Position numbers and translations under genes: made by a program
The notes under the pieces: generated by a model
What the model was told of the DNA's origin: nothing
Databases searched by the model: none
Seen by the model: the letters and a program-made list of their open reading frames with translations, nothing else
Part shown: positions 3,434 through 36,106 of the stretch, piece after piece
Layout of the letters: each line of letters begins with the position of its first letter
How positions within the stretch are numbered: position 1 is the first letter of the stretch
Source: an uncultured Candidatus Saccharibacteria bacterium
Lineage (GTDB): Bacteria > Patescibacteriota > Dojkabacteria > CAZCSM01
Assembly (NCBI GenBank): GCA_964501355.1
Contig: CAZCSM010000007.1
Coordinates: 1,096 to 65,095, forward strand
Length of the DNA stretch: 64,000 nucleotides
Direction: 5' to 3'

Positions 3434-3643
3434 TTGGGGAAATAGATTATATTAACAATAGATTATATAACGAAATCTATCGTTTGTGAAATGAAATATG
3501 ATGGATGCCTCAGGGAAAACATATGAAAGTTGTGTTATTGCGGATTCTTGTATTAAGCTTATCGAAGTATATTGCGCGATTTCAGTATTTTTAACTGAGA
3601 AAAGAGATACCGGAATAAATCTGGCATGACACGGAGAGAACGT

Positions 3644-18200: not shown

Positions 18201-18828
18201 CCAGCCCCGGATCCATATCTATTTCCGTTCCGTAAAATTCCGTTGTTAGGTATACATAACCATCGTATTCCACTGAGGAATATATTTCTTCGTAGCTATT
18301 TCCATCTAGAGTTATTGTCCAAGCATAATCACCATTGGAAAGTAGTTTAAGAAGAAAACCGTCATAATCACCAGGAACGGATGTTCGGATATCTTCTGAT
18401 ACACCTGTATCAAAATCTACAGAATCATAAAAGGCACCGGAAATATAAATGTTATCATCAGGGGATATGTAAATATCATTCGGCCAGAGATCTCCATCGG
18501 CGGAGGTTTCTACGAATTTAAACCAGATAATCTCACCGTTCTCATCAATCTTATTAATATACAGACATGTGTTTGTACAGGTGTATGTATCGTTCGTACT
18601 TTTATCAATGACTATTTCATCCCCATACAAATATCCGACGACGATTGTGTTATTTTCTGAATCTAGACTGCTAAGACCATTGTAATCGTAAGCACTAGTA
18701 CTGATGGAATTTACCCATTCGTAGTATATTTCGTCAGCGGCAAATGTAACTGATGTTGAAATCAACCCGAAGAACGCAAGACTTATTATCAAAAGGATTA
18801 TTTTTCCGAGTTTATACTTCATTTGCAA
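15298..18828 (-). CDS. N-terminal part of the same giant surface protein: signal peptide, SBBP-type beta-propeller repeats, Ig-like region, then the first cysteine-rich repeats. It ends at a frameshift.
   Basis: Signal peptide [30 protein letters not shown]. Many DFD-x-G...Y motifs of SBBP (seven-bladed beta-propeller) repeats. The last ~120 aa are the same cysteine-rich repeats as the downstream ORF. Removing the 2-bp 'tg' at ~15312-15316 restores ...[15 protein letters not shown]... in the frame of 12860..15232. Confidence 0.7.
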
Positions 18829-18894: not shown

Positions 18895-21312
18895 TCAAAG
18901 AGATGCCGTTAAATTCCTTCTTCGTGTCATTCTCCGAATGGAGAATCTAACATTAAGATATTTATAATTGATTATCAAATATAACCCTATTATGAATTGG
19001 AATATGATTCCGCTTCCCGTCTGAGGTAATACCTCTTCAATCCCAAGTGTAAACTCACTCGATGCTACGTTTCCTGCTGGATCTGTTGTCGTGATTTGTA
19101 CTAGATATGTTCCCACTCCTAATACAGACCCTAGGTCTAACTCCCAGTTACCATCTTCTCCTACTGTTATTTCTGTCTCATATACTATTGTTCCTTCCTC
19201 CGTCAATGCTGTGATTGTTACTACTGTACTCTGTTCTGCTGTACCTCTTACTATTACCGGTTCTCCTTCTGCTCTTGTATATCTTTCCTGTGTTTGTTGA
19301 TATGTTAGGTGTGTTAGATCAAGAGTAAGTAATGCAGAGGTTTTTAGAATAATAGTATCGTTAACTACTAGTGATTCATTTCCTGCATTATCTTTAAACT
19401 TTGCATATACTGTCTTACTCCCATCTCCTGATGGTAAGGACCAAGTCTTTGTTGTATCGTATGATTCCCAACTTGCTCCTGTAAAGGTTGAACTATCTGA
19501 AATCAACATTTGGGAGACTCCCGAAAGATTGTCGGTTGCAGAAAGGTTGAGAGTAACTTCTCTGGTATTGGTATATGCATCTCCCCCATTGATAGTGAAA
19601 CTTCCTGCAGGAGAATGAGTATCTAGTGTAAAAACATCATTCCCATACAATACAGCTGGCATATATACTCCATTATTATCTTTAGTTCTTACATAAATAG
19701 TATGTATTCCCTCTGATAGACTAGAGATATCACAAGAGAATTCTTCGGATGATGAATTAAAAATTCCATCCGCTGCGCTACAACTAGTCCAAAGACCTCT
19801 CACATTGTTTCCGGTTGACCATTCCACAGCTGCAATAGTGTAACCAGGTATTATATCGATAACTGTTCCTAAAATTGAAGAATTAACAGATGTATTAGGA
19901 AAAGATATGGTAGGATTACCATGACCTACTTCATAAATATACACCCTTCCTGCAGCTTGAATTCCATCGTCCGATAGTGCTTGTCCTATATATAGATCTT
20001 TCCAATCATCACCATCCATATCTCCTGAACCTACTACATTCCCAAAAGATCTATTGGGTATTCGAGAAGAAATTGTTAAATCCGCTGTAGTGTCAAAATC
20101 TCTAGTTCCATTACCTAAATAAATGTTTACATATCCATCCTGAGATCCTGATACTTGGTAAGCTCCAACTACAAGATCCATATTACCATCATTGTTAAAA
20201 TCATCTACAACTATGCTTCGACCAAAATTATCATTTGCATTAGCTCCATAAATAGTAAAACCTTCATTAGTAATTCCAAGAGAACCCAAGTCTACATTAA
20301 CCCCATCTTTTAAATCAGTAGTAGAAAACACACATTGGACTATTCCTACGTTTTCATAAGGATTATCGTATTCATATGTCCCTACACAAAAATCATCTCT
20401 TCCATCATTATCTATATCTTTTAATTGAATCTTGCCTCTTCCAATCCTATCCCATGTTTCTTCAGCCGTAAACTTAACATCATAAGTGGCATCCATGTTT
20501 TCACCACCGAAGAAAATAAATTTTTCGTTACCCCAATTCGGCTCTCCAACAACAACATCATCATATCCATCTCCATTAAAATCCCCAGACGTTAGTCCGT
20601 TATAACTAAGCATAGAAGCACTCACAACTCCAAGAGTAAGATCAGATGTAGTACTAACATTTTTAGTTCCATTTCCATAATAAACATTCGCTACACCTTT
20701 ATTACTATTTGCAAACATAGAACCAATGACAAAATCAATATAACCATCACCATTAAAATTTCCTGAAGTACTGCTAACACCTGTTGCCCGTAGATCTGTT
20801 AAATTTCCTTCAAATTCTACATCTGCCCCCTCAGCTACTGTAATATCTCCTCCCCAATCAGATGAACCCCAAAAAATCCAAGCCTTACCTTCATTTCCAT
20901 TTAAAGTAATATCATATCCCCATTCCCCCCCAAGAAAATCTAACCATCCATCATTATCAAAATCCCCAATAGCATAATCAGTATCTGCAGCAGGAAATTC
21001 ACCAGCTCCTGTAATAGTAATATCAGCATCAGTGTCAAGAATTTCTCCTCCAAAATATACATATAACCTATGCTGTTTTACTGCAGAAATTAATAAATCT
21101 TCATAGCCATCATTATTCATATCTCTAGTCATAGGTTCTCCAGATCCCCCAAACCAAGTTATCGAAGATTCTCCTCCACTAACGGTCCCTAGATAATCAA
21201 AATCTATAGCCGCATTAACCTTTCCTACAGCAAGAAAGGCAATTGCACCGACAACCATTACCGAAACAGCAACAAAAGTGAAAGCTTTTATTTTCCTTCT
21301 GAATTTTGTCAT
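18895..21312 (-). CDS. FG-GAP repeat / Ig-like surface protein with a C-terminal LPQTG sortase sorting signal.
   Basis: Signal peptide. At least 6 FG-GAP calcium-binding motifs (DFNGDGYIDFVIG, DFDNDGWLDFLGG, DFNGDGYDDVVVGE, DIDNDGRDDFCVG, DFNNDGNMDLVVGA, DMDGDDWKDLYIGQ). Ig-like domains. The C-terminus is LPQTG, a hydrophobic stretch, then RRMTRRR. Confidence 0.7.
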   Translation of the reverse strand: MTKFRRKIKAFTFVAVSVMVVGAIAFLAVGKVNAAIDFDYLGTVSGGESSITWFGGSGEPMTRDMNNDGYEDLLISAVKQHRLYVYFGGEILDTDADITITGAGEFPAADTDYAIGDFDNDGWLDFLGGEWGYDITLNGNEGKAWIFWGSSDWGGDITVAEGADVEFEGNLTDLRATGVSSTSGNFNGDGYIDFVIGSMFANSNKGVANVYYGNGTKNVSTTSDLTLGVVSASMLSYNGLTSGDFNGDGYDDVVVGEPNWGNEKFIFFGGENMDATYDVKFTAEETWDRIGRGKIQLKDIDNDGRDDFCVGTYEYDNPYENVGIVQCVFSTTDLKDGVNVDLGSLGITNEGFTIYGANANDNFGRSIVVDDFNNDGNMDLVVGAYQVSGSQDGYVNIYLGNGTRDFDTTADLTISSRIPNRSFGNVVGSGDMDGDDWKDLYIGQALSDDGIQAAGRVYIYEVGHGNPTISFPNTSVNSSILGTVIDIIPGYTIAAVEWSTGNNVRGLWTSCSAADGIFNSSSEEFSCDISSLSEGIHTIYVRTKDNNGVYMPAVLYGNDVFTLDTHSPAGSFTINGGDAYTNTREVTLNLSATDNLSGVSQMLISDSSTFTGASWESYDTTKTWSLPSGDGSKTVYAKFKDNAGNESLVVNDTIILKTSALLTLDLTHLTYQQTQERYTRAEGEPVIVRGTAEQSTVVTITALTEEGTIVYETEITVGEDGNWELDLGSVLGVGTYLVQITTTDPAGNVASSEFTLGIEEVLPQTGSGIIFQFIIGLYLIINYKYLNVRFSIRRMTRRRNLTASL

Positions 21313-21384: not shown

Positions 21385-24300
21385 TTACATTCCAAATGGA
21401 GTATCCATATTTTCCAGTTCCTCAGGAAGATCAGTTACCTTGCTCACTCCAATATTTTTCTTTAAAATCTTCTCTTTCTTTTCCACTGTAAATTTCAACT
21501 CTTCTTCCTGTTTGTAATATGGAGATTCTACAAATACTGCATATTCTCCCTCTTCCGCCAAGAATCCATATCTACCCTTATCATCCGTTATTTGCGAGTT
21601 AATCAATTTGTTATCACTCAAATCAAATAGTCTTACAAATACTCCTTCTACTTTATCTCCCATTGGTAACTCAAATACATGTCCCCAGTTCTTTGACAGT
21701 ACATTCGTAATGTATGCAACGATTAGTAATATCAAAATATTAAGTCCTAGAAGAACGAAGTTCCAAATAGTCGGTGCAAAGATTATTCCTAATATCATAA
21801 GTACACCTCCTACTACATTAATCCATAAACCAATCTTGTTCATAAATACCTTAAACTTATCTTTAAAGTTATGATATTTATCATCTTTATCTGCTATTGC
21901 TTTGGGAAGAAGAGGTATGTCATAAGCTACTGCGAAATCATCTCTTACTTCTATCTCTCCTCCTAAATATTTGCCTGTTAAATCGTAACCTTTCATTACA
22001 TCTTCGCTTGCCTGTGGTAATACAAAGTCTGCATGTTCAACACCGATTGTATATTTACCTTCTGGTGCTAAGAATCTATACCTTCCTTCAAGATCTGTAA
22101 CAACTTCTTCTACCATTTCATTAGTTTCTGCTTTGTACAACCTAACAATTGCAAATGGTATTGGTGCTTTTTTATCTATATCAAACACTATTCCCCACCC
22201 TTGCTTCTTCCTCTCTTTATCAAATATAGCTCCCCATAACTGTGGTAGTTTTGGAAAGCCCCCCACTTTCGATAGAAAACCTAAACCCTGAAGCAAAAGC
22301 CCAGAAGTTGTTAAAGCAGGTATCAAAACTCTAGCAATAAAGTCTAACCAATCAAATGACTCCTCATCGCCAGTCTCTGGTAATTCCAAGAGATTGGTAT
22401 ATAGATAATCACGAGTCTTCGCTTGCATTTCATCTTTCCTACAGATAATTCTGTAATGTATCTCAGAATCATCTAGATTGGAGATATCTAATGGTTGCAG
22501 ATACTCAGCTTTGACTTTTGGTTTTATGTTTTCAACTAATTCTCCATATGCAACCGTTTCGCCATAATCCACCAGACATATCATATCCGTACAGCTCGTC
22601 TTCCAACTTACATCTAAATATTTTTCTGAAGATCTTTCATGCAACACGTCTGATATGGCACAAACCATAGGAATTTCGGCCAAGGTTCTAAACATTTGAT
22701 CTGCAGACCTCGTTCTGTAACCATCCTGGTCAGATGCAATAATTTGGAAATGATATGCCGTATCGGAAATTAAATTCTCAAGTAAATAGGAGTGCGTTTC
22801 TTTATAATCACTTGAAGTTAATTCAAACCCATAGGCTATAGTTTCACCATAATTAAGTACTATACTTGCAGGCTTCGTTGTACCGAAAGTAACAATTGCT
22901 GAATTGCTCGTTATGTTTGAAACTTTAATGTTTATTATTTGAACAGCATTAGCACTGGATAAAGTTGAAAAATTTGAAGTCTCAACATCTTGCAAATTTC
23001 CGCTAATTGCCGTAACTCGAATGTAGTACTGAGTGTCGATTGATAAATTATTTAAAGTTTGAGTATGGTTCAATGCAACAGATGAAATCACTGCGCTTTG
23101 TCCATAGGATGTTGTTGTCCCATATTCTAAAATAGCACTTGCCGAAATATTAGTTGTCCAAGATACAATTGCCGAATTAGTAGAAACATTAGATATATTT
23201 AGACTTGTTATCATTAAATCATAACCAAGTGTTGTAAAGGTTTGATCTGAAGATGTAACTTCATTTAGCGACGCATCCCTCGCTAAAATTTGAAAATGAT
23301 AAAGAGTTTCGGCAGTTAATCCTGTTAGTGTAACTGAATGAGTTGTCGATAATTCGTTAATATAATCTGTTGCATTTCCATAAGATGATGTTACTCCATA
23401 AGAAACTTGACCAGTTGTGGGCTCATTGGTTTCCCAGCTAATAACTGCTGATGTCTGAGTTATATTTGTAACTTGAATATTTCTAATTCTTGGTACAACC
23501 ATATCCCTTACTTGCAAAATTGCAGAAGCTTCCTGAGGATCACCATTTAATATAACTGTAATAACTTTATTCTCTGCAACAGTAGAAGAAATTCTACCAA
23601 ACGCTTTACCATTTTCATCCGTCGCTTCGATGGGCTGAATTAAGTTATTACCTGTTCCCGTCGCATTCAAAGTCACAAATGTTCCAATTACAGGATTATC
23701 AAATGAATCCAGTAAAGTAACCTCTATTACAGAAGAAGCCACGCCATCATTATTTATAATAGAAGGAATTAAGTTAATTAATGGGATAACATCGTCTGCA
23801 GACTGCAAAACATCTATGTTCTTCGTATCTGTCAAAGAGCTATTTAAGCTATCAATTATTGTAATCGCTCTGTTTCCAACTGTTTTTAATTGAACTCCAT
23901 TTGTGAAATTTTTTGTACCCATATCATCTGCGACAAAGGTGTAATCAGAAGGTAATACAGCAGCAGAGTCGGACGAACTAAAGGTTACATTTCCTCTATA
24001 TGCAGTATCTACACGACCGTAATCATCTTCTGCATGAACTTGTACCGAAAGAAAACCTCCAGCATTTATTGTGTTAACAGAAGGAGTTAAAACCAATTTC
24101 GTCATCTGTGTCACTATAAAATCTGGTGAAGTTTCTGGATTCCCGCCAAAAGAAACCCATTCGCTAAAAACACCAGAATCATCTCTGACTCTTGCTCGCC
24201 AATGATATTGGGTATTATTTACAAGATCTGTAATTGGAGTTCTTATAACAATCGGTGTTCCCGTAAAATTTGTAGCTACTCCAGTATGAGTTGGAGTTCC

Positions 24301-27300
24301 AGTGAAATCGACACCAACAGGACGCACTTCGAATTGTGGTGTTAAAATATCGGGATTATTAGGATCTGTTGCTGTTAATTCTAAAACGACAGAAGATGGT
24401 GCCGTTCCACCAATTGGAATAGGTTCAAAAGATTCAGGAAGTAATTGCTTCAAGAATTCTGGATTATTCGGATAACCAAAGGGGCCTAAAGCAGTTCCCA
24501 TTTGTCCCGACTGGTAACCGGAACCACCTGAACGACTTATTAAACCAAGATTTACATAATCTGAACCATAAAGAATAGATATTCTACCACCACCACCACC
24601 ACCACCATCAAAAATATCATCTCCACCATTACCACCATCAACACTTATACTTCCAGCCGAAGAGAAATTAACAGTTCCCGCCTTTATAAAAACGCTACCG
24701 CCAGCACCACCGCCACCGCCAGGACTAGATATTCGACCATTGGTACCACTCATATCAATTGCACCAAGAATATTTACAGCCCCGCTCAAGGCGAATATAG
24801 AAAATGCCGAACCTCCAGCTCCTCCAGATGCACCAGCACCAGAAGTACCTCCACCACTACCTAATGATAAAGGACGCAAGGCATCACCATAACTCAACCC
24901 TCCAGCTGTTGTCCCGTTTATTCCATCGCTTGCTCCAAGACCACCATTACCACCATATGCACCGCCACCTCCACCACTACCTTGTCCTCCTCCAGCGATT
25001 GCCCCTGTACTTCCAACCCCAGGACCATCATTCGCCGGAAAGCCCAAACCTTTTCCGTCAATAACGGACCCTTCGCCTAAATCAAAACTATCTAAAACAT
25101 TAAAACTAACACCACCACCGGTTCTCTCATTATACGCATTATCATAATCATCCAAATATTGTTGATATTCGGCAAATGGCATCCCGTAAAAAAGAGCACG
25201 CATTTCTGTTTGAGTTAATGCACGATTATAAACAACAATTTCATCGAAAGTTCCCCATGAGTAATTTCTATCCACACGTCCACCGTTACCCAAGAATTGA
25301 ATAGGTGCAGTTACCTGAGACAGAGATGTTCCCACTAGCTCACCATTCACATAGAAATTAGTTTGACCACTATTGGATACTGCTCCGATATGATTCCAAC
25401 CTGTTAATGTGTTTACATTGTATCCAGAACTGTAGAATCCACCATTTAAGATCCCGAGAAGCCCATTACTGTTAACGACAATATGATGAGATGTTAAATC
25501 TGTATTATCTGCTAAAAGTATTCTGTATCCACCATAAGTGCCTGTATTTAACGGGAAGTTGGACCACGCACTTATTGAGTATGTTGAACCAAGATTTAAT
25601 GGTGATATTTCAAGCTTCTGTAACAAGTCTGTTTTTCTTGCTTTTCCATACTTACCATCAACAATTGTAGAGCCAAAAGAATTTGCATGATTTAAATTGA
25701 CACTCGCATCACATGCATCAAATGGATCTAGTTCTTCTACGATACATAGATTATCTTCCGTTTCGTTAAAATGCAAAAGCAGTGTAGTATATGTGTCTGC
25801 AACAATTTCCCTATCGACCTCAGGAAGTTCTGGATATACTAAGCCAGAAGGCAGTTTTGATGTATCACCAAACATTCGCGCTCGAACATTTTGAGAAATA
25901 AATACATTATCGAAATTATATGTTCCTGCAAAGAAATCTGTTCCTTCCGCACCGATAACATTACCGTTATTTAAATACAAATCACCATATTGCTGCTCGG
26001 ACTGTTTGATAAATATCGTTCCCGGACCACCTAAGTATCCGTAAGATTGAACTCGATCATTCCCAAAATCGAATCCATTATTTTCAGAGTAATAAATAGC
26101 TACTCGACCACCTCCACCATCATATTGGGCAGAAGATCCCTCATATCCATTAGCCTTAATCAACCCTGTACCTGATATTGTCCCAGCATTAATTAGGACC
26201 GATCCTCCACTACCTCCTCCCCAATTTAAACATTCTTCTCCTGCACCAGTCCTGACTCCAGCACCACCATTAGCAGATATTATTCCATTTATTAATAAAG
26301 TATCAATAACATCAATGTTTACACCCCCGCCTCCAGCACCACCAATCATATATGTCCATGCAATGCCAGAACAGTCATTTCCTGCACTTCCTAAATCTTT
26401 CGGAGAATATAGATCGCCGTATGTTAATGTTTTAGATTGAGCCTGCCCATGTCCTCCATATGTACCTCCTCCATAATTTGTTGTTCCAGATGGCCAGCCT
26501 GGTCCTTGAGGTTCCCTGTAACGTCCATAGCCATTACCATCCGCAGTAATTATTGAACCTTCGGAAACCTGAAGATTTGCTACACTTAACTCCGCACTAT
26601 AATCATTATCCCAAACATCATCGTCGCTTATATGAGACTCGAAAAATATTATACTGCTTAAGTTCATTGTCAAGTTTCTGAATTCGTATTTATCTTCATA
26701 GCCCCGGGCCCATGTATTGGGAATCAATGTTAACGCGCCAGAATATGTTGATCCCAAAGTTAAATCCTCTACACCCGTGTATTGACCATTCAATATAAGA
26801 TGAATACCGTCAGCAACAAACAAATCATTTCCTGATAATAATGTTCCATCTATTTGGAGAGAAGGTATGGTTGAATCCCCAGAGATTTCAGAACTTGAAT
26901 CTATTTCTAAGATAGAATTTGTACCCAATATAACCAAATCTCCATATCGAGATAAATTCACAGTATTGAATTTGTATTCATCTTCGATAAGCCCCGCTTC
27001 GTAACCACTTACTCCACCGTTATCAATATATAAATCACCATTTTCACTTGCTTCTGTAAAATAACTAACTTGTTCTACATATACCGTTCCAGGACCAGCA
27101 TTATTACCCCTTGCCATTATGTGCTCTCTGTCTACAAGAAATCCATAATTTTGTTCATAATACAAAGCAACCCTACCACCCGATCCTGAATATGCAACGG
27201 TACCACCATTTGCTGAAATAATACCATTTCCTAACGAAATTAAGTCTTTAACTTTAATATGAACACTTCCCCCGCTACCACCTCCCGATGAACTTGTGCC

Positions 27301-30300
27301 ACCATACATATTGTCACCATTTGAAGAAATGACACCATTCAAAGTAAGGGTGTTATCAACCGTCAAGTCTATAGCACCTCCGCCACTACCACCAATAAGA
27401 GAGGTAGAAGCACTAGAACCACAACTTCCTAGATGAGAAGGTCTAAAAACAGAACCATATATCTGACCCCCCTTATAAGGCCAATAACGAGTAGAAATTC
27501 CTCCATCTCGATACGATTCAGAAAAACCCCCATAACTACCTCCCGCCCGAAGATCTGTAAATCCAGGACCACAGTAAGAGGAATTTAATGGAAAGCGTGC
27601 CCCATAACCATATCCCATTCCATTTGCGTGTAAACTACCACCTGAATCAATCGTTAAATCAGAGACGGATAAATGTACTCCAAAATCATTCTCCCAATCC
27701 GTATCCATAGAATTGTAACTTATGCACCGCAATGTTCCTTGTGGTCCTATGTGTAAATTTTCAAAACTGTATGGATTATCCATTCCTCTTGCCCAAGTCT
27801 TTGCGTACAAAGTCATACCAGATGGAGACAGCAAACCAATATCAATATCTGATACACCTGCAATATCTCCATTAATCCCCAAATCAACACTTTCGATACC
27901 CAAAGCACCCTCACCAGTATATGTCAAGGTTCCATCAATTTTAGCAAATGGAACCGTTAAATCCCCCTGAAAGCCATCACCCGAATTTATCGTTAATATA
28001 GATGTTTCACCAAAGAAGATAACATCTCCATATCCTGTAAGATTTACACTTCCGAAACTATAATTCCCTTCAGGTACACCTGCAGATAAGCCCTGCACAG
28101 CATTATTGTCAACAAACAAGTCTCCATTATAACTTGGACTTGACGACAATGAAGACAACTGTTCTATGTATACTGTACCAGGACCTGATTCATTAGTACC
28201 TCTTGCATATATATTTGAAGTGCTTAATGGGAAACCCATATTATTAACATAATAAACTGCTATCCTGCCCCCTGCACCATCTCCATCACTTCCAGTGCCA
28301 GGATTCTTACCGTTTGCCTGAATAATTCCATCACCAACCAGATTCTGAGCTCGTAAAAATATTGAACCACCGGAACCAGCCCTGTCCTCACATCCAATGG
28401 CACTAGTCCTATAATACCCGCCACCATTACTGGTTATTGTTCCTAACAATGTTAATGAGCCGTTAACAGTTATTTCTATAGCACCGCCTCCAGCTCCGCC
28501 GTTACCACCCCTAGCACCGGCACCAGAACAATTAGACCCGCCACTACCAAGTAAGAGTGGTTCGTATATGCTACCGAAGGGATCTATTGTGTTAGATTCT
28601 CCATATCCGCCATATGTAGCACCAGCGTAAGACTTATAGCCAGGCCCCTTTTCGGATGTTCTAACCCGTCCATAACCTAATTCATTTGCATCTATAAAAC
28701 CTCCTGATAGCACTGTAATGTTTTCTGCGACCAACGGAACAACATAGTCATTCGTTTCATCTCTAGAATCGAGAGTGTCTCCAGACTCATAACTTCTAAT
28801 AAACAAGGAACTTCCACCGAACACTTCTATATCACCGAACACATATTGTGAAGTGGTGCCATATGCCCAAGTTCCCGAGAGCAAAGTTACGGCACCTGTA
28901 ACTGAATTACCAATCCGTAAATTAGTTACACCGCTCAAAGACCCCCCTACTATTAGATTTACACCATTCACATTCAAAGTGTCAGGTAGCAAATTTATAA
29001 ATGAACCATCTACTAGTAGCCCGGGAGAAGATGCATCTCCCGATAAAACTGAACTATCAGTTATTGTTAATGATGATGTCGAACCAATAAACCTTACATG
29101 ACCCCCTCTTGATAATTTAATCTTGGAGAAATTATAATCTCCGCTCAATACACCAGCATAGTTTGATTTAAGTAAATACCTGGCCTCGTCAAAAGTATCA
29201 GCTCCCTTGTAATGAACTATATCATTATTATCAACGTACAACTTACCCTGACTTGGATTATCAATCGCACGATCCTCTATATATACAGTACCCGCACCAG
29301 CACTTGAAACTTTGTCATCCCCATAATCTCCTCCATATGACCTTATAAAGTTCTGGACATTAGTGTCCGACATTGATAAACCGATTAGATTGTCGTAATA
29401 TATGGCAATTCTTCCACCGCCACCATCTGCAGTGCCGTAATAAGAACTAGTTCCTGATCCATTCGCAACAATCAAAGCACTGCTACTAAGCTCTAATAAC
29501 TCAGCATCTATATAAACACTTCCCCCAGAACCACGCAGTAAACCATTACTTGTAATCATTCCTGACAAACTCAGAGATCCTGTACCGTAAGTGTCTTTTG
29601 CGATAAGCTTAATCGCCCCACCACCTCTAGAATTGGCCAGTGTGCTTGAAGATCCTAAATCAGAGGGGGAAAATACACTTCCGTATACACCATTTTGGTA
29701 ATACGAACCATATCCGCCATAACTTGCTCCCGTGGTTCCGCGCCCCGCCCCCCTACCCGTACCATACCCCAATCCATTAGCATTAAATGTTGCATTCTCA
29801 TCAACCGTAATTGTTTTAGCTTCAAGTGTAACACCATAATCATCTGTCCAAACATCATTGGCATTATCGTATCCATAAAAATCAACAAAGCTGCCTCCTC
29901 TCACACGAAATGTTTCGAAAATATATTGTCCTCCAGTTCCCCAATTATTAGCGTGCAATCCCAAACGTGCCGTTGCCACAGCTCCAACATCGACATTGCT
30001 CACACCGCTTAGTGAGCCAAACCATTGCAAGTCTACGTTATTAACTGTGAATGTATCTATGCCCAAATAATTAAATGAACCACGCACAAGAATCTTTGTT
30101 GTGCCATCACCGATAATGGTCGAATTATTTGCTATACTTAAACTTGAGCCGCTACCTAAAAATTCCACATGACCATTTCTCTTTGTATCTATAGAAGAGA
30201 AATTGTAGATACCTGCTGTTATTGTAGCGGACTTTTCACAATTATTTCCGCCGACCAAACAAACCCTCGATGCGGCATCGACTATTAATTTTCCTTGTCC

Positions 30301-33120
30301 AGGAGAATGAATGCCTTTATTTTCAAAATATATTGTTCCTGGAGATCCATAATATGCTCCACCAGAAAACTCTCCACCACCATAAGCCTGTATATTTGTT
30401 GGAAATGAACCTCCACTCAACACCTCGTATTTTATTGAAACACGCCCTCCAGAACCGCCTCCACGCCCAGCTCTACCGTTTCCACCATTAGCCTTAATGT
30501 ATCCGTCGCCAGAAAAAACACTGGTATTTATTAAAACGCTTCCTCCTGTTGCCCCCCCTCTGTTATTCAATGTACCAGAATCGTTCAAACCATTTGCTGA
30601 TATTGTACCGTTGACACTTGTCGTTCCAGTTATTTCTAATTTAATAGCCCCACCACCGCTTACACCGGTTGTTGCACCACCACTACCAAGTGAAGTTGGA
30701 GATAAAACATCTCCATATGACGACCCATCGCCAATAATCGCTCCATATCCATATCCCCCGTAACTTGATCCCCCAGATTTATAACCCGGCCCCTTAGTTG
30801 AGAGGTAGCCTTGTCCATCAGCACTTACAAAAGCCCCTGTTTCAACAGTCAAATTATCAGCTAAAACAGTTACTCCAAAATCATTGTCATAAATACCGTC
30901 GTTGTTGTTGTATGACTCCAATGTCAAGGTTTTCCCTGTTTTAACAACTATTGATATGCCTCTACAATCAATTATTCCAGCATTTACTGGAGTTGCCGAC
31001 CATGTTGTATTCGTATCAATTATTCCATCCGCATCAGGACAAGATCCAAAGGATTCTACAACAGCTAAGGTATTAGAATACCCTTCAACCAAATCTTCAT
31101 CTACACCCTTAATTTTGATACCTTCTATTGTATCATACGTTGCATTATCAATAGTTATAGTACCATTAATAAGTGTTGCTGTAGGATTAGTACATTCTGC
31201 ACCAACACAAAATATACCCGTTCCTGGTAATCCTATATCAGAAGCCAAGACCGCTGACAAATCAATAATTTCATTATTCACTAAAACTAAATTATCAAAT
31301 GAGTCTCGAGCATTAACAGTAATTATAAATTCTTGACCAATAAATACAGCATTCGGAACAATTATTTCATAATACGAAGTATGATCAGATGCAGCGGATG
31401 CCGTAAAAATCATAGGTGAACCCGAAAGACCGCTTCTTGTTGCACTTGCAGTATTATTGTTAATTCCAGCTGTTGGACCAAGGGTTAGAATTGTGGAAAC
31501 AAGCCCAAAACGATTAGAACGTACTAACCCGACATCGGTTGACCCACCCCCTAAAACTGCCGCCCACGTAACATCATGATAATAGACCGGAATTCCAGCG
31601 ACATCTGTCACCATTGCAACAAATGGTTCTGTGAGAGGGTTTAAAACTGTACCTGTTTGATTATCGCCCGATATTTTAATCAACTGTGTGGGCACATCAG
31701 ATATCATGAAATCTGCATCAGTTTCTACGTTTTCTCCGAATGAGACCCATTCACTCACCGCACCAGCTTCATCACGAACGCGAACCTGCCAATGGTAACG
31801 CTTACTTTTAGGCAAATTCTCTATCAGCCATGTAATTGGAACCTCTACTCCTGCATACGCAATTTGTGCACCAGTATGTGTAGGCGCATTTATAAAAGGA
31901 GTATTTATTTCCTGAATTTCAATTTGTGGGTAAAGAATGTCTGTTCCATCTACATCCGATACATTCATTCGAAACTGGATATCATCACTTCGTGTAGACT
32001 CTCCGACATTAAGCTTGTTTGTTACATAAACACCGTCAATTAGTTCTCTATAAGCATATTGCTCAAGAGCAGTCGGAACATTTGGATAACAAGTAGGACC
32101 GATTAAAGTTCCTTCTTGACCATTTTGCAAACCACCAATACCGCCCGATACCACAGCAGAAAGTGTCCCAACTGCAATATTATTACTTTGTGTACAAAGC
32201 AATACAACCCTTCCACCGCCGCCGCCGCCGCCACGAACTCCTGCATCAATAGCATCTCCACCAATTGCAGAAACGTCACCACCTGCACCAGACAAAATTC
32301 TCGCATCTACCCAAACAGTACCACCCGAACCGCCACCACCTGAAGCTCCAAACAAAACCTCTTCAGAGGGAAGACCGTTTGCGTTAATAGAACCATTTAT
32401 TGTAACTTCCCCCGTTGTTGCATCGAGACAATCTGTTTTCTCCGTACCAGTAAGGGTATTACACGTTGAATCGATTTTCAAGAAACCTCCACCTGCACCA
32501 CCAACTGCTCCAGTACCGGCACTCCCTCCACCACTCCCCAAATAATTGGGAAGTAAACTATCCCCATACACATCACCCCCAGCACCTCCCAGTTCTACAC
32601 CCGAAGGAGACCCCTCACCTCCTGCACCTCCATAACCACCTCCACCTCCACCAGAAAGAACCGCTCCATCTCCACCCGCTCCTGCTCCTCTAGAAATAGA
32701 ATACCCCGTACCATCAGCGTTTATAACCGCACCTACCTCCAAATCCAAGCTTCCGACCAACCAAGTAACACCGTAATCATTTTCCCAATTATCATCACCA
32801 TTATCATAACCTTGAATAGTTATTGTAACACCTGTATCGACAACGATATGGGTCATAGAACAGTCAACAACACCACCCGTTGATATAAAAGATGCAGCAT
32901 TGAGTGTAACACTTTCACCTATCGTTAACGTACTTCCAGCATAATTACCCAATGATGCAGGACAACTATCCGCCGCTCGAAGTCCGAACAATGTTTTCCA
33001 ATCAATAGTGAAGATTAATATAATAATAAGAAATGCAGCAAGTATAACGCCAGCATATCTGAACGCTTTAATATTACGCTGAATAAATTCCTTCCATTTT
33101 GCAAGGTTCTCTCGAGTCAT
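21385..33120 (-). CDS. Giant (3911 aa) secreted/surface adhesin-like protein.
   Basis: N-terminal signal anchor. About 8 units of ~370 aa containing xDxWxNDYGVxL...NGxGYG plus a 'GGGAI(K/E/D)L...NGxISANG' motif, resembling Pmp-type beta-helix repeats. Gly-rich stretches. A LamG/concanavalin-like domain. A bacterial Ig (Big) domain. 4 tandem FN3-like domains. Two copies of a YHW(Q/R)xRVRDxxGxxSEWVSFG domain. C-terminal LPETGDEE, a TM segment, and a double CarbopepD_reg module homologous to the C-terminus of the 12860 ORF. Confidence 0.8.
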   Translation of the reverse strand: MTRENLAKWKEFIQRNIKAFRYAGVILAAFLIIILIFTIDWKTLFGLRAADSCPASLGNYAGSTLTIGESVTLNAASFISTGGVVDCSMTHIVVDTGVTITIQGYDNGDDNWENDYGVTWLVGSLDLEVGAVINADGTGYSISRGAGAGGDGAVLSGGGGGGYGGAGGEGSPSGVELGGAGGDVYGDSLLPNYLGSGGGSAGTGAVGGAGGGFLKIDSTCNTLTGTEKTDCLDATTGEVTINGSINANGLPSEEVLFGASGGGGSGGTVWVDARILSGAGGDVSAIGGDAIDAGVRGGGGGGGRVVLLCTQSNNIAVGTLSAVVSGGIGGLQNGQEGTLIGPTCYPNVPTALEQYAYRELIDGVYVTNKLNVGESTRSDDIQFRMNVSDVDGTDILYPQIEIQEINTPFINAPTHTGAQIAYAGVEVPITWLIENLPKSKRYHWQVRVRDEAGAVSEWVSFGENVETDADFMISDVPTQLIKISGDNQTGTVLNPLTEPFVAMVTDVAGIPVYYHDVTWAAVLGGGSTDVGLVRSNRFGLVSTILTLGPTAGINNNTASATRSGLSGSPMIFTASAASDHTSYYEIIVPNAVFIGQEFIITVNARDSFDNLVLVNNEIIDLSAVLASDIGLPGTGIFCVGAECTNPTATLINGTITIDNATYDTIEGIKIKGVDEDLVEGYSNTLAVVESFGSCPDADGIIDTNTTWSATPVNAGIIDCRGISIVVKTGKTLTLESYNNNDGIYDNDFGVTVLADNLTVETGAFVSADGQGYLSTKGPGYKSGGSSYGGYGYGAIIGDGSSYGDVLSPTSLGSGGATTGVSGGGAIKLEITGTTSVNGTISANGLNDSGTLNNRGGATGGSVLINTSVFSGDGYIKANGGNGRAGRGGGSGGRVSIKYEVLSGGSFPTNIQAYGGGEFSGGAYYGSPGTIYFENKGIHSPGQGKLIVDAASRVCLVGGNNCEKSATITAGIYNFSSIDTKRNGHVEFLGSGSSLSIANNSTIIGDGTTKILVRGSFNYLGIDTFTVNNVDLQWFGSLSGVSNVDVGAVATARLGLHANNWGTGGQYIFETFRVRGGSFVDFYGYDNANDVWTDDYGVTLEAKTITVDENATFNANGLGYGTGRGAGRGTTGASYGGYGSYYQNGVYGSVFSPSDLGSSSTLANSRGGGAIKLIAKDTYGTGSLSLSGMITSNGLLRGSGGSVYIDAELLELSSSALIVANGSGTSSYYGTADGGGGRIAIYYDNLIGLSMSDTNVQNFIRSYGGDYGDDKVSSAGAGTVYIEDRAIDNPSQGKLYVDNNDIVHYKGADTFDEARYLLKSNYAGVLSGDYNFSKIKLSRGGHVRFIGSTSSLTITDSSVLSGDASSPGLLVDGSFINLLPDTLNVNGVNLIVGGSLSGVTNLRIGNSVTGAVTLLSGTWAYGTTSQYVFGDIEVFGGSSLFIRSYESGDTLDSRDETNDYVVPLVAENITVLSGGFIDANELGYGRVRTSEKGPGYKSYAGATYGGYGESNTIDPFGSIYEPLLLGSGGSNCSGAGARGGNGGAGGGAIEITVNGSLTLLGTITSNGGGYYRTSAIGCEDRAGSGGSIFLRAQNLVGDGIIQANGKNPGTGSDGDGAGGRIAVYYVNNMGFPLSTSNIYARGTNESGPGTVYIEQLSSLSSSPSYNGDLFVDNNAVQGLSAGVPEGNYSFGSVNLTGYGDVIFFGETSILTINSGDGFQGDLTVPFAKIDGTLTYTGEGALGIESVDLGINGDIAGVSDIDIGLLSPSGMTLYAKTWARGMDNPYSFENLHIGPQGTLRCISYNSMDTDWENDFGVHLSVSDLTIDSGGSLHANGMGYGYGARFPLNSSYCGPGFTDLRAGGSYGGFSESYRDGGISTRYWPYKGGQIYGSVFRPSHLGSCGSSASTSLIGGSGGGAIDLTVDNTLTLNGVISSNGDNMYGGTSSSGGGSGGSVHIKVKDLISLGNGIISANGGTVAYSGSGGRVALYYEQNYGFLVDREHIMARGNNAGPGTVYVEQVSYFTEASENGDLYIDNGGVSGYEAGLIEDEYKFNTVNLSRYGDLVILGTNSILEIDSSSEISGDSTIPSLQIDGTLLSGNDLFVADGIHLILNGQYTGVEDLTLGSTYSGALTLIPNTWARGYEDKYEFRNLTMNLSSIIFFESHISDDDVWDNDYSAELSVANLQVSEGSIITADGNGYGRYREPQGPGWPSGTTNYGGGTYGGHGQAQSKTLTYGDLYSPKDLGSAGNDCSGIAWTYMIGGAGGGGVNIDVIDTLLINGIISANGGAGVRTGAGEECLNWGGGSGGSVLINAGTISGTGLIKANGYEGSSAQYDGGGGRVAIYYSENNGFDFGNDRVQSYGYLGGPGTIFIKQSEQQYGDLYLNNGNVIGAEGTDFFAGTYNFDNVFISQNVRARMFGDTSKLPSGLVYPELPEVDREIVADTYTTLLLHFNETEDNLCIVEELDPFDACDASVNLNHANSFGSTIVDGKYGKARKTDLLQKLEISPLNLGSTYSISAWSNFPLNTGTYGGYRILLADNTDLTSHHIVVNSNGLLGILNGGFYSSGYNVNTLTGWNHIGAVSNSGQTNFYVNGELVGTSLSQVTAPIQFLGNGGRVDRNYSWGTFDEIVVYNRALTQTEMRALFYGMPFAEYQQYLDDYDNAYNERTGGGVSFNVLDSFDLGEGSVIDGKGLGFPANDGPGVGSTGAIAGGGQGSGGGGGAYGGNGGLGASDGINGTTAGGLSYGDALRPLSLGSGGGTSGAGASGGAGGSAFSIFALSGAVNILGAIDMSGTNGRISSPGGGGGAGGSVFIKAGTVNFSSAGSISVDGGNGGDDIFDGGGGGGGRISILYGSDYVNLGLISRSGGSGYQSGQMGTALGPFGYPNNPEFLKQLLPESFEPIPIGGTAPSSVVLELTATDPNNPDILTPQFEVRPVGVDFTGTPTHTGVATNFTGTPIVIRTPITDLVNNTQYHWRARVRDDSGVFSEWVSFGGNPETSPDFIVTQMTKLVLTPSVNTINAGGFLSVQVHAEDDYGRVDTAYRGNVTFSSSDSAAVLPSDYTFVADDMGTKNFTNGVQLKTVGNRAITIIDSLNSSLTDTKNIDVLQSADDVIPLINLIPSIINNDGVASSVIEVTLLDSFDNPVIGTFVTLNATGTGNNLIQPIEATDENGKAFGRISSTVAENKVITVILNGDPQEASAILQVRDMVVPRIRNIQVTNITQTSAVISWETNEPTTGQVSYGVTSSYGNATDYINELSTTHSVTLTGLTAETLYHFQILARDASLNEVTSSDQTFTTLGYDLMITSLNISNVSTNSAIVSWTTNISASAILEYGTTTSYGQSAVISSVALNHTQTLNNLSIDTQYYIRVTAISGNLQDVETSNFSTLSSANAVQIINIKVSNITSNSAIVTFGTTKPASIVLNYGETIAYGFELTSSDYKETHSYLLENLISDTAYHFQIIASDQDGYRTRSADQMFRTLAEIPMVCAISDVLHERSSEKYLDVSWKTSCTDMICLVDYGETVAYGELVENIKPKVKAEYLQPLDISNLDDSEIHYRIICRKDEMQAKTRDYLYTNLLELPETGDEESFDWLDFIARVLIPALTTSGLLLQGLGFLSKVGGFPKLPQLWGAIFDKERKKQGWGIVFDIDKKAPIPFAIVRLYKAETNEMVEEVVTDLEGRYRFLAPEGKYTIGVEHADFVLPQASEDVMKGYDLTGKYLGGEIEVRDDFAVAYDIPLLPKAIADKDDKYHNFKDKFKVFMNKIGLWINVVGGVLMILGIIFAPTIWNFVLLGLNILILLIVAYITNVLSKNWGHVFELPMGDKVEGVFVRLFDLSDNKLINSQITDDKGRYGFLAEEGEYAVFVESPYYKQEEELKFTVEKKEKILKKNIGVSKVTDLPEELENMDTPFGM

Positions 33121-35252: not shown

Positions 35253-36074
35253 CTACAACCTCTCCAAAAACACCTTCGGCGATTGCAGAAAGTCTTTCAT
35301 TAACTGCACACTTTCAATGTCTTCGTATTTTATCAAGTTGAGCACTCCCTCCCTAATTTCATAGATCTCCGCATCAGGAAACGCCATCAACATCGGAGAA
35401 TGAGTTGCAATAATAAATTGTGCTCCAGTTTCAACTTGTTCTTTTATCATTGAAATAAGCGACATTTGTCTAATCGGAGAAAGTGGAACTTCAGGCTCAT
35501 CTAAAATATATAATCCTTCAGGAACAAATCTTTGAGAAAATAAATTCAGAAAGCTTTCGCCATGGGAAAAAGCATCCGGATTTTCACCATATCTTTTTTC
35601 CAGATTGTTAATCTGATTTTGCATTGCACTTGTTGAAAGGAGTTTCCCATAACCTGTGTATTTTTCAGAAAATTCTTGTTTCTGTTTTCTGAGTTCAATT
35701 TGATTTCTTGCAATTTGCCTTTGGAAACCAAAGAAGTCTTCTGCTCGCATGAAAAAACCTCGATGATTTCGGATACTCCAAGTTAGTTGAAGATTCTTTG
35801 CCAATCGACGTGCAGGTTCCAAGGTTTCGTCTTTCGTAGAATTGTCAACACCAATAATCGGAAGATCAGTTGCAACAGCAAGTGCTTCGAGAAGAGTTGA
35901 TTTTCCGGAACCATTTTCACCAACGAAAATAGTAACAGGTTTGGTAAATCGAAGTTCCTCAAGATTTCTAATCAAATCAAGAAAAAACGGATAATCCGTT
36001 TCTTCAATTTTTGATTTTAGTTTAAAAGATTGAAGCTGCATAAATTCAAAATTAAAACCATTAGTGTATGTCAT
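35253..36074 (-). CDS. Small ABC-type / AAA_21-like ATPase (predicted ATPase, COG3910-like). Start revised to MTYTNGF...
   Basis: Walker A VGENGSGKSTLLEAL; signature-like HGESFLNLF; Walker B LYILDEPEVPLSP; H-loop IIATHSP. The first 12 codons of the listed ORF (MYGARLRVKPAM) are encoded by a REP hairpin at 36070-36097, so the ATG at 36074 is the more plausible start. Confidence 0.65.
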   Translation of the reverse strand: MTYTNGFNFEFMQLQSFKLKSKIEETDYPFFLDLIRNLEELRFTKPVTIFVGENGSGKSTLLEALAVATDLPIIGVDNSTKDETLEPARRLAKNLQLTWSIRNHRGFFMRAEDFFGFQRQIARNQIELRKQKQEFSEKYTGYGKLLSTSAMQNQINNLEKRYGENPDAFSHGESFLNLFSQRFVPEGLYILDEPEVPLSPIRQMSLISMIKEQVETGAQFIIATHSPMLMAFPDAEIYEIREGVLNLIKYEDIESVQLMKDFLQSPKVFLERL

Positions 36075-36097
36075 TGCGGGCTTGACCCGCAATCTCG
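36070..36097. repeat. REP-like hairpin unit (GTCATTGCGGGCTTGACCCGCAATCTCG) between the GIY-YIG and ATPase genes.
   Basis: Same family as the units at 36520-36599. The stem is gcgggcttgacccgc. Confidence 0.5.
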
Positions 36098-36106
36098 CAC
36101 CGTACA

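What the first reader, a model, noticed from the sequence alone, without database searches (positions are those of the whole stretch)
21385..33120. An 11.7-kb single ORF encoding a 3911-aa protein with ~8 Pmp-like 'GGGAI' beta-helix repeat units plus LamG, Big and 4 FN3 domains.
The protein shows a ~370-aa periodicity. Each unit begins with D-x-W-x-N-D-Y/F-G-V-x-L ... NG-x-GYG. Each contains Gly-rich tracts and a GGGAI(K/E/D)(L/I)...NG-x-IS(A/S)NG motif, reminiscent of chlamydial polymorphic membrane protein / autotransporter passenger repeats. It then acquires LamG, Ig-like and FN3 modules and the anchoring cassette. An uninterrupted ORF of this size in a repeat-rich context is notable in itself. 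It is probably the main adhesin of the organism.
Basis: partly seen in the sequence, partly recalled or inferred. Interest (0 to 1): 0.6.

Follow-up and report, generated by a model that had tools for sequence, protein, structure and literature searches.

The report
Giant glycine-rich beta-solenoid envelope protein
This is a real 3911-residue cell-envelope protein built from seven copies of a widespread but unannotated glycine-rich beta-solenoid module, with conserved counterparts in ultrasmall Patescibacteria, and it is not a chlamydial Pmp or autotransporter relative.

Summary
The ORF is real: 21385..33120 on the minus strand, 3911 aa, with no internal stops. It holds 7 glycine-rich units, not about 8. 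Five are tandem with a period of about 358 aa, and two are shorter, each followed by an Ig-like domain. It also has LamG, Big_1 and four FN3-like domains.

The Pmp reading fails. TIGR01376 and Chlam_PMP give no hit, FxxN occurs at chance level, and there is no autotransporter barrel.

AlphaFold models are confident: pLDDT 86 and pTM 0.90 for one unit, pTM 0.88 for two units. They are all-beta. No solved structure matches significantly, but the weak hits are almost all beta-solenoids.

The module is in neither Pfam nor NCBIfam. It matches 11,361 cluster representatives, mostly multi-copy giant proteins.

Eight Patescibacteria genomes encode giant proteins (3346–4681-residue reading frames, one cut by a contig end) with the same domain order. 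This rules out an assembly chimera.

The C-terminus has LPETG, a hydrophobic segment and a basic patch. A conserved module of about 300 aa follows: beta-sandwich, TM hairpin, beta-sandwich. A sortase gene lies 19 kb away.

Best reading: an envelope-anchored rigid fibre used for attachment. The attachment function is inferred, not shown.

The parts
21385..33120 (-). Whole gene, 3911 aa plus stop
   Evidence: It is listed as one ORF and the translation has no internal stop. It is identical to P0063, an NCBI protein from a 66,339-bp contig.
32977..33120 (-). N-terminal basic region and hydrophobic helix (aa 1-48): a Sec signal or uncleaved signal-anchor
   Evidence: Hydropathy scan finds a TM-like segment at aa 17-48. 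An N-terminal TM is also present in the orthologues, at aa ~220-255 in L005 and L006.
32104..32856 (-). Glycine-rich unit U1 (aa 89-339), short type
   Evidence: Unit HMM domain, E 3e-65. Alignment.
31672..32088 (-). Ig-like domain (aa 345-483) paired with U1
   Evidence: Pfam Ig_Rha78A_N at aa 427-459. It is 35% identical to aa 2858-3009.
31021..31671 (-). Unassigned region (aa 484-700), probably Ig-like, conserved in orthologues
   Evidence: 31-41% identity to all orthologues at the same relative position. No Pfam hit, so the Ig-like fold is inferred.
29941..30954 (-). Unit U2 (aa 723-1060), long type
   Evidence: Unit HMM, E 1e-124.
28864..29934 (-). Unit U3 (aa 1063-1419), long type
   Evidence: Unit HMM, E 7e-120.
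27778..28857 (-). Unit U4 (aa 1422-1781), long type; the modelled unit
   Evidence: Unit HMM, E 2e-129. AF2 pLDDT 86.2, pTM 0.90, all-beta.
26707..27777 (-). Unit U5 (aa 1782-2138), long type
   Evidence: Unit HMM, E 1e-135. The two-unit model U4+U5 has pLDDT 85.2 and pTM 0.88.
25789..26700 (-). Unit U6 (aa 2141-2444), long type with a truncated extension
   Evidence: Unit HMM, E 1.5e-107, profile positions 1-307 of 347.
25204..25599 (-). LamG / concanavalin-like lectin domain (aa 2508-2639)
   Evidence: Pfam Laminin_G_3, E 5e-12. It sits at the same position in most orthologues at 36-43% identity, and at 25-26% in L004 and L005.
24490..25176 (-). Unit U7 (aa 2649-2877), short type; the best-conserved unit
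   Evidence: Unit HMM, E 7e-49. It is 43-52% identical to orthologues. Translation checked.
24091..24480 (-). Ig-like domain (aa 2881-3010) paired with U7
   Evidence: Homologous to aa 320-483.
23506..24090 (-). Ig-like region including Big_1 (aa 3011-3205)
   Evidence: Pfam Big_1 at aa 3125-3198 and Invasin_D3.
22396..23505 (-). Four FN3-like domains (aa 3206-3575)
   Evidence: Pfam fn3 and Pur_ac_phosph_N, 3 stretches. Internal duplication 3218-3377 against 3401-3566. This block varies among orthologues.
22369..22383 (-). LPETG sortase-type motif (aa 3580-3584)
   Evidence: The same position carries LPLTG in the paralogue ORF 12860..15232. It carries LPFTG, LPETG, LPITG or LPKTG in some relatives and no such motif in others.
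21385..22368 (-). C-terminal cassette (aa 3585-3911): hydrophobic segment, KERKK patch, WGIVFD beta-sandwich 1, TM hairpin, WGHVFE beta-sandwich 2
   Evidence: Pfam DUF1416 / CarboxypepD_reg-like. Internal duplication 3640-3695 against 3810-3865. Alignment of 14 cassettes. The cassette HMM hits 33 of the top 150 family representatives.
21691..21837 (-). TM hairpin of the cassette (aa 3762-3810)
   Evidence: Hydropathy scan and translation.
12860..15232 (-). Neighbouring protein with the same LPxTG plus C-terminal cassette, preceded by DUF4215 Cys-rich repeats
   Evidence: Cassette HMM E 4e-111.
18895..21312 (-). Adjacent FG-GAP (integrin-like) plus Big_13 surface protein with a canonical LPQTG-TM-RRR end
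52396..53094 (+). Sortase gene, the candidate processing enzyme for the LPxTG proteins
   Evidence: Pfam Sortase, E 1.3e-17. A TLQTC motif is present.

Best explanation
The gene encodes a giant envelope-anchored fibre of a Patescibacteria-type bacterium.

Export and ectodomain: an N-terminal signal or signal-anchor exports about 3500 residues. That ectodomain is built from seven copies of a glycine-rich module. Each module folds into a beta-solenoid of coils about 35 residues long, of the form GGG-x-I-x-I ... G-x-I-x-A-N-G-G. Five tandem long units probably stack into one rigid rod.

Candidate binding and spacer parts: Ig-like, LamG and FN3 domains are interspersed. They would provide lectin-like ligand binding and spacing.

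Anchoring: the C-terminus is held in the membrane by a conserved three-TM cassette. Its two transthyretin-like beta-sandwich domains are predicted to face the cytoplasm. In this lineage an LPETG motif directly upstream may let the sortase encoded nearby cut the ectodomain and link it to the cell wall.

Likely role: attachment to, or contact with, another cell or surface.

Shown here: the ORF, the repeat anatomy, the domains, the predicted fold class, the conservation and the cassette. Inferred: the rigid rod, the membrane topology, sortase processing and the adhesive function.
For: - ORF and domains.
- Seven units.
- AF2 models: one unit has pLDDT 86.2 and pTM 0.90. Two units have pLDDT 85.2 and pTM 0.88, which implies a defined mutual orientation.
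- Internal coil repeats of about 35 aa: hhalign gives 93.9% and 79.5% probability between successive sub-blocks.
- Foldseek neighbours are non-significant but almost exclusively beta-solenoid adhesins, tailspikes and lyases.
- Across 983 unit instances the conserved residues are Gly, aliphatics, Tyr, Pro, Ser, Arg, Thr and Asn. No conserved Asp, Glu, His, Cys or Lys appears, which fits a scaffold rather than an enzyme.
- Co-linear orthologues in 8 Patescibacteria genomes (3346-4681-residue reading frames, one cut by a contig end) carry the same unit arrangement; the HMM counts 7 to 9 segments because some units are split.
- The cassette is conserved and shared with a neighbouring surface protein.
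- A sortase gene lies in the window. The adjacent FG-GAP protein has a canonical LPQTG signal.
- Giant surface proteins of CPR bacteria are proposed in the literature to mediate host attachment (PMC8080830).
Against: - No ligand, localisation or expression data exist.
- No solved structure matches significantly. Best Foldseek E is 0.03 and TM is at most 0.26. The solenoid assignment therefore rests on AF2 and sequence periodicity.
- I could not inspect the model coordinates, so handedness and rod geometry are unknown.
- If the N-terminal helix is not cleaved, both ends are membrane-tethered. That fits an envelope scaffold better than a projecting fibre.
- LPxTG is absent at the equivalent position in several orthologues.
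- 327 residues follow the motif here, unlike canonical sorting signals.
- Taxonomy is not settled. The window's SerRS is 70-74% identical to Clostridia enzymes.
- The cassette plus module also occurs in loci labelled Micavibrio and Gammaproteobacteria. In those diderm bacteria an inner-membrane anchor would not expose the protein on the surface.
Confidence: 0.55

Rival explanations
1. It is an envelope scaffold or S-layer-like coat protein. It would be tethered at both ends, by the N-terminal signal-anchor and the C-terminal cassette, and lie along the cell surface rather than project as an adhesin.
For: - An N-terminal TM is conserved in the orthologues. In L005 and L006 it lies about 220 aa from the N-terminus, so it is probably an uncleaved anchor there.
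- Unit number and order are strongly conserved, which suits a structural ruler.
- S-layers are reported in Patescibacteria, and beta-helix S-layer proteins exist in other phyla.
Against: - S-layer proteins are normally far smaller and abundant. They lack multi-TM cassettes (my own knowledge).
- LamG, FN3 and Big domains, and the neighbouring FG-GAP and Cys-rich LPxTG proteins, are typical of adhesion loci.
Confidence: 0.2
2. It is a beta-helix carbohydrate-active enzyme, a lyase or hydrolase, that attacks the host cell wall. Each unit would carry an active site in the conserved glycine-rich insertion.
For: - Polysaccharide lyases and tailspikes appear among the weak Foldseek neighbours.
- Giant proteins of predatory bacteria have been linked to cell-wall degradation.
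Against: - No conserved acidic, His, Lys or Cys residue appears across 983 unit instances.
- No CAZyme or lyase Pfam hit appears, even at E<=10.
- The Foldseek matches are not significant.
Confidence: 0.07
3. It is a chlamydial Pmp-like or autotransporter-type passenger.
For: - A GGGAI motif occurs in 4 units.
- The weak Foldseek neighbours include Ag43, Hbp, pertactin and TibA passengers.
Against: - TIGR01376, PF02415 and autotransporter models do not hit.
- FxxN is at chance level.
- There is no beta-barrel. The C-terminus is an LPETG plus TM cassette.
- The coil period is about 35 aa.
Confidence: 0.03
4. It is a motility-associated surface protein related to Myxococcus AgmC, involved in adventurous gliding.
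For: The only named model touched by the units is NF047640 gliding_AgmC_N. The hits are consistent in region: U4 E 2.7e-4, U5 2.2e-3, U1 0.096, and a Microbulbifer unit 2.9e-5.
Against: - Scores are about 20 bits against a cut-off of 275.
- Only part of the model is matched (positions ~232-403 of 412).
- A Myxococcia MAG protein with 9 units does not hit the model.
- No literature on AgmC could be retrieved.
Confidence: 0.05
5. It is an assembly chimera or a spurious ORF created by repeats.
For: None found.
Against: - There are no DNA repeats longer than 37 nt and no tandem arrays.
- The units are only 30-43% identical.
- Independent assemblies encode co-linear orthologues.
Confidence: 0.01

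Closest known systems
Autotransporter passenger beta-solenoids (Ag43, pertactin, Hbp, TibA; chlamydial Pmp)
   Same: Both are long, repetitive, predicted all-beta solenoid surface proteins. These proteins are the top, though non-significant, Foldseek neighbours. A GGAI-containing motif is shared with Pmp.
   Different: There is no sequence-family match and no beta-barrel translocator. The coils are about 35 aa long with long Gly-rich arcs. Anchoring is by an LPETG motif and an alpha-helical TM cassette. FxxN motifs are absent.
Giant surface proteins of CPR/Patescibacteria, e.g. Vampirococcus lugosii (PMC8080830)
   Same: Both are very large membrane-associated proteins with integrin/FG-GAP and fibronectin domains in ultrasmall episymbionts. 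They are proposed to mediate host recognition.
   Different: That paper lists WD40, PKD, DUF11 and similar domains. It describes neither this glycine-rich module nor the C-terminal cassette. Here a specific co-linear orthologous group with seven units is defined.
Giant1-4 of Apilactobacillus kunkeei and SRRP beta-solenoid adhesins (PMC12863079; PDB 5ny0)
   Same: Both are 3000-8000-aa extracellular proteins of a small-genome symbiont with beta-solenoid binding domains, encoded in clusters of consecutive giant genes.
   Different: Those proteins have a single N-terminal solenoid. Here seven Gly-rich solenoid units are distributed along the chain. Only a weak Foldseek hit to 5ny0 was found, E 0.61.
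LPXTG sortase substrates of Gram-positive bacteria
   Same: Both have LPETG followed by a hydrophobic segment and a Lys/Arg patch. A sortase gene lies nearby, and a neighbouring protein has a canonical signal.
   Different: The signal is not terminal. About 300 further residues follow it: beta-sandwich, TM hairpin, beta-sandwich. These are conserved even in orthologues that lack LPxTG.
NCBIfam NF047640 gliding_AgmC_N (Myxococcus AgmC)
   Same: Several units give weak and positionally consistent hits to this model.
   Different: The scores are far below the cut-off, about 20 bits against 275. Any relationship is at most a shared sub-domain.
Omnitrophota giant proteins (bioRxiv 10.1101/2023.11.21.568195)
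   Same: Both are giant genes in metagenome-derived bacteria with suspected predatory or epibiotic lifestyles, and both have large beta-helix regions.
   Different: Those proteins are much larger. They have an antiparallel beta-helix with paired alpha helices and SecA-like domains. No sequence relationship was found here.

Membership tests
Chlamydial polymorphic membrane protein (Pmp) repeat family, TIGR01376 / PF02415 | Match to the POMP repeat HMM (TIGR01376) or Chlam_PMP (PF02415) | tested here: not met
   There is no hit for the whole protein at E<=0.1. There is no hit for single units at E<=10 in Pfam or NCBIfam.
Chlamydial polymorphic membrane protein (Pmp) repeat family, TIGR01376 / PF02415 | Many alternating GGA[ILV] and FxxN tetrapeptides | tested here: not met
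   GGA[ILV] occurs 4 times in 3911 aa, at most once per unit. FxxN occurs 12 times against 9.1 +/- 2.8 in shuffles.
Chlamydial polymorphic membrane protein (Pmp) repeat family, TIGR01376 / PF02415 | C-terminal autotransporter beta-barrel | tested here: not met
   No autotransporter Pfam hit. The C-terminus is LPETG plus alpha-helical TM segments and CarboxypepD_reg-like domains.
Right-handed parallel beta-helix (pectate-lyase-like) fold | Significant structural match to a solved beta-helix | tested here: inconclusive
Right-handed parallel beta-helix (pectate-lyase-like) fold | Regular coils seen as internal sequence repeats | tested here: met
   Three successive sub-blocks of about 35 aa are homologous. 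hhalign gives 93.9% and 79.5% probability. DSSP shows a recurring pattern of long strand, turn, short strand. The coil is longer than the typical 22-25 aa (that figure is from my own knowledge).
LPXTG sortase-anchored surface proteins | LPXTG motif followed by a hydrophobic segment and a basic tail | tested here: met
   The sequence is LPETG, then FIARVLIPALTTSGLLLQGLGFL, then DKERKKQ. The same layout occurs in ORF 12860..15232 and in L004 and L009.
LPXTG sortase-anchored surface proteins | Sorting signal at the extreme C-terminus | tested here: not met
   327 residues follow the motif. TIGR01167 was not reported.
LPXTG sortase-anchored surface proteins | Sortase encoded in the genome | tested here: met
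   ORF 52396..53094 matches Pfam Sortase at E 1.3e-17 and has a TLQTC motif.
LPXTG sortase-anchored surface proteins | Cleavage at T|G and linkage to peptidoglycan | not testable with these tools
   This needs proteomics or biochemistry.
Unnamed patescibacterial giant-protein orthologous group (L001-L006, L009, L012; P0064-P0081) | Co-linear order: U1, Ig, five tandem units, LamG, U7, Ig, C-terminal cassette | tested here: met
   Segment-wise BLAST gives 25-52% identity at matching positions in 8 genomes.
Unnamed patescibacterial giant-protein orthologous group (L001-L006, L009, L012; P0064-P0081) | C-terminal three-TM, double beta-sandwich cassette | tested here: met
   The cassette HMM scores E 1.5e-119 for the window protein. 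The co-linear orthologues score 1e-103 to 1e-136, and more distant loci score more weakly.
NCBIfam NF047640 gliding_AgmC_N | Score at or above the curated cut-off (275 bits) | tested here: not met
   The best unit scores 20 bits, E 2.7e-4.
Laminin_G_3, fn3 and Big_1 domains | Pfam gathering score reached | tested here: met
   Scores are 46.6 against 27.6, 58.9 against 25, and 37.7 against 34.9 bits.

The most novel reading that the evidence does not exclude
The glycine-rich solenoid units and the three-TM, double beta-sandwich cassette may together form a conserved trans-envelope contact device of epibiotic bacteria. It would occur in Patescibacteria and, as labelled, in Micavibrio. A rigid extracellular rod of fixed length, seven units, would be mechanically or signal-coupled through the cassette to cytoplasmic beta-sandwich domains. 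Sortase cleavage at LPxTG would act as a lineage-specific switch between membrane-tethered and wall-linked states. This would be a new class of anchoring and signalling module, not merely a long sorting signal.
Probability: 0.12. Interest if true: 0.75.

Novelty: new variant of a known kind. Interest (0 to 1): 0.45.

Why it matters
Patescibacteria make up a large share of bacterial diversity and live attached to other cells. Beyond type IV pili, the molecules that mediate this contact are mostly unknown.

This gene belongs to a conserved orthologous group. The giant proteins share domain order and unit arrangement across divergent genomes, which gives a concrete candidate for genetic tests in cultivable Saccharibacteria.

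Its repeat module has no entry in Pfam, NCBIfam or the PDB. Yet it matches more than 11,000 cluster representatives, mostly multi-copy giant proteins from many phyla. Describing it would annotate a large block of 'hypothetical' sequence.

An LPxTG motif followed by a conserved 300-residue membrane module is also an unusual anchoring arrangement.

Tried and rejected
- Pmp / autotransporter membership: rejected by the HMM and motif tests.
- PDB sequence search with the unit profile: nothing below E 0.5.
- Foldseek against PDB and BFVD: no significant match. The best viral hit has E 3.9e-3 and TM 0.38 and is uncharacterised.
- Exact look-ups of the giant protein and of SerRS in the contig index found nothing. 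The protein does exist in the collection as P0063.
- Genome-contig scan with the whole protein: nothing found. The scan with the 4-unit alignment A3 succeeded.
- Flank synteny between the window and orthologous loci: none beyond the giant gene and the cassette-bearing proteins.
- AgmC literature search: nothing found.
- Rfam scan of the window for taxonomic or regulatory RNAs: only tRNA-Glu.
- Taxonomy from SerRS gave a conflicting Clostridia-like signal, so the window's lineage is left as 'Patescibacteria-type, not proven'.
- A toxin-delivery (CdiA/Rhs-like) reading was considered and dropped, because the C-terminus is a membrane cassette and not a toxin domain.
Full report
**Observation.** The window holds one uninterrupted ORF at 21385..33120 on the minus strand, encoding 3911 aa. 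Exactly this protein exists in the public collection as P0063, from an NCBI contig of 66,339 bp.

Pfam assigns these domains:
- Laminin_G_3 at aa 2508-2639
- Big_1 at aa 3125-3198
- fn3 / Pur_ac_phosph_N, three stretches within aa 3212-3570
- a fragment of Ig_Rha78A_N at aa 427-459
- a CarboxypepD_reg / DUF1416-like domain near the C-terminus

Self-BLAST shows a two-domain duplication in the FN3 block, so there are four FN3-like domains. It also shows a second copy of the C-terminal beta-sandwich, 3640-3695 against 3810-3865.

**Repeat anatomy.** Self-comparison, alignment and an HMM built from the units give seven glycine-rich units.
- Five long units are tandem, at aa 723-1060, 1063-1419, 1422-1777, 1782-2138 and 2141-2444. 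Their spacings are 340, 359, 360 and 359 aa.
- Two short units, at aa 89-339 and 2649-2877, are each followed by a homologous Ig-like domain.
- Units are 30-43% identical to each other.
- GGGAI occurs in four of them, against 0.08 expected by shuffling.

At the DNA level nothing longer than 37 nt is repeated and TRF finds no array. The repeats are therefore old and diverged, and assembly collapse is not a concern.

**What the unit is.** No Pfam model matches any single unit even at E<=10. NCBIfam gives only weak hits to NF047640 gliding_AgmC_N, about 20 bits against a cut-off of 275, though the hits fall consistently on the same part of the model. TIGR01376 and PF02415 never appear. A profile search of PDB sequences finds nothing.

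AlphaFold2 with an alignment of units and homologues gives a confident all-beta model: pLDDT 86.2 and pTM 0.90. It shows a recurring pattern of long strand, turn, short strand. A two-unit construct keeps pLDDT 85.2 and pTM 0.88. I read this as a defined, rigid relation between neighbouring units. That is an inference, because I could not see the coordinates.

Foldseek finds no significant solved or viral neighbour. Best E is 0.031 and TM is at most 0.26 against the PDB, with a best viral hit of E 3.9e-3 and TM 0.38. The hit lists are nonetheless filled with beta-solenoids: Ag43, Hbp, pertactin, TibA, tapirin, pectate and fucoidan lyases, and tailspikes.

Sequence alone supports a solenoid. Three successive sub-blocks of about 35 aa in the core are homologous to each other, with consensus GGGGGAIxLxVxGTLTLDGxISANG, then GGGGSGGSIWIxAxTLxGSGxISANGG, then GGGGGGGRIAIYY...AxGG. 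hhalign gives 93.9% and 79.5% probability.

Over 983 unit instances the conserved positions are Gly, aliphatics, and Y, P, S, R, T, N. No conserved acidic residue, His, Lys or Cys appears. This argues for a scaffold and not an enzyme.

**Distribution.** A profile of the seven units matches 11,361 representatives of 50%-identity clusters at E<=1e-3, and 3,987 at E<=1e-30. The top 150 have a median of 7 units and a median length of 2702 aa.

In GTDB species genomes the module occurs in giant ORFs of many phyla. Examples are Planctomycetota, Verrucomicrobiota, Acidobacteriota, Chloroflexota, Marinicella, Microbulbifer and Myxococcia. Full-length unit matches of 38-43% are confined to Patescibacteria MAGs (BroJett019 and 037, 'Saccharibacteria', Dojkabacteria).

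Those genomes encode giant proteins (reading frames of 3346 to 4681 residues, the shortest cut by a contig end) that are co-linear with the window protein. The shared order is U1, Ig, unassigned region, five tandem units, LamG, U7, Ig, Big, C-terminal cassette. Identity is 25-52% per segment. U7 is the best-conserved unit and the FN3 block is variable. This is therefore an orthologous group with a fixed unit arrangement, not a recent expansion or a chimera.

**Anchoring.** The N-terminus has a basic region and a hydrophobic helix at aa 17-48. The orthologues also have an N-terminal TM. In two of them it lies about 220 aa from the N-terminus, which suggests an uncleaved anchor at least there.

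The C-terminal region reads, in order:
- LPETG at aa 3580-3584
- a moderately hydrophobic segment
- DKERKKQ
- a beta-sandwich beginning WGIVFD
- a Lys-rich stretch
- a TM hairpin at aa 3762-3810
- a second beta-sandwich beginning WGHVFE

By the positive-inside rule, both beta-sandwich domains would be cytoplasmic. This is an inference.

The same cassette closes the neighbouring ORF 12860..15232, after LPLTG. It also closes all the co-linear orthologues and 33 of the top 150 family members. A word-indexed search found only three other homologues. The LPxTG motif is present in only a subset of relatives.

A sortase with a TLQTC motif is encoded at 52396..53094. The adjacent FG-GAP protein ends in a canonical LPQTG-TM-RRR signal. 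Sortase processing of the giant is therefore plausible, but it is atypical, because 327 residues follow the motif.

**Interpretation.** The best reading is an envelope-anchored, largely rigid beta-solenoid fibre. LamG, Ig and FN3 modules would provide lectin-like binding and spacing. It would be used for contact with another cell or surface, in line with proposals for giant CPR surface proteins (PMC8080830).

Rivals considered:
- an envelope scaffold tethered at both ends
- a beta-helix enzyme, disfavoured by the conservation pattern
- an AgmC-like motility protein, supported only by weak HMM hits
- the Pmp / autotransporter reading, which fails the sequence-based defining features tested (HMM, motifs, barrel)

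**Caveats.**
- The window's own taxonomy is unsettled. Its SerRS is 70-74% identical to Clostridia enzymes, which is either horizontal transfer or a warning.
- Loci labelled Micavibrio and Gammaproteobacteria also carry the module plus cassette.
- Structural libraries beyond PDB and BFVD Foldseek were unavailable.

**Verdict.** The beta-helix idea is right at the level of fold class. The Pmp assignment is wrong.

The protein is a new variant of a known kind, the giant beta-solenoid surface proteins. It is built from an unannotated but very widespread module and carries an unusual C-terminal membrane cassette. Interest is moderate.

Noticed in passing
window 15298..15320 (ORFs 15298..18828 and 12860..15232, minus strand): The 1176-aa and 790-aa ORFs look like one gene of about 1980 aa. 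The joined product would be signal, SBBP/NHL propeller, about 16 DUF4215/TIGR02232 Cys-rich repeats, LPLTG and the C-terminal cassette. They are split by a 2-nt insertion ('gt' in gaatgtgatGTgatgataat) inside a repeat. This could be a frameshift, a sequencing error or phase variation.
   Followed up: partly
window 52396..53094 (+) and 43044..43706 (+): A sortase gene (Pfam E 1.3e-17, TLQTC motif) and a YkuD L,D-transpeptidase gene lie in the same window as three proteins bearing LPxTG motifs.
   Followed up: partly
window 10921..12195 (-): The seryl-tRNA synthetase is 70-74% identical to Clostridia enzymes (Thermoclostridium, Acetivibrio). The giant protein's full-length relatives are all in Patescibacteria. 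This points to horizontal transfer or unresolved taxonomy.
   Followed up: partly
window 18895..21312 (-): An 805-aa protein has four FG-GAP (integrin-like) repeats, a Big_13 domain and a canonical LPQTG-TM-RRMTRRR sorting signal. It lies directly downstream of the giant gene.
   Followed up: partly
L046 3473..15439 and L020 110..15793: The C-terminal three-TM, double beta-sandwich cassette co-occurs with glycine-rich units in giant ORFs of contigs labelled Micavibrio sp., an epibiotic predator, and Gammaproteobacteria. Cassette HMM E-values are 2e-37 and 2e-50.
   Followed up: no
window 40793..41257 and 41318..41779 (-): Two adjacent GreA/GreB-family paralogues.
   Followed up: no
window 37311..39320 (-): A class II aminoacyl-tRNA synthetase of the Asp/Lys/Asn type is fused to a C-terminal DUF2000 domain.
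   Followed up: no
window 49565..49933 (-) and 35253..36110 (-): A MazF/PemK-like toxin gene and an AAA_21 (AbiEii-type) ATPase gene are present, possibly as defence or toxin-antitoxin elements.
   Followed up: no
window 54297..55829 and 55931..58225 (-): A 510-aa CAP/YkwD plus Big_13 protein lies next to a 764-aa ORF with no family hit, downstream of the sortase. They may be further surface proteins.
   Followed up: no
L069 5270..17269: A Microbulbifer giant protein carrying the same glycine-rich units also gives a weak hit to NCBIfam NF058578 'CPR_pilus_PamR', E 3e-8 and well below cut-off.
   Followed up: no
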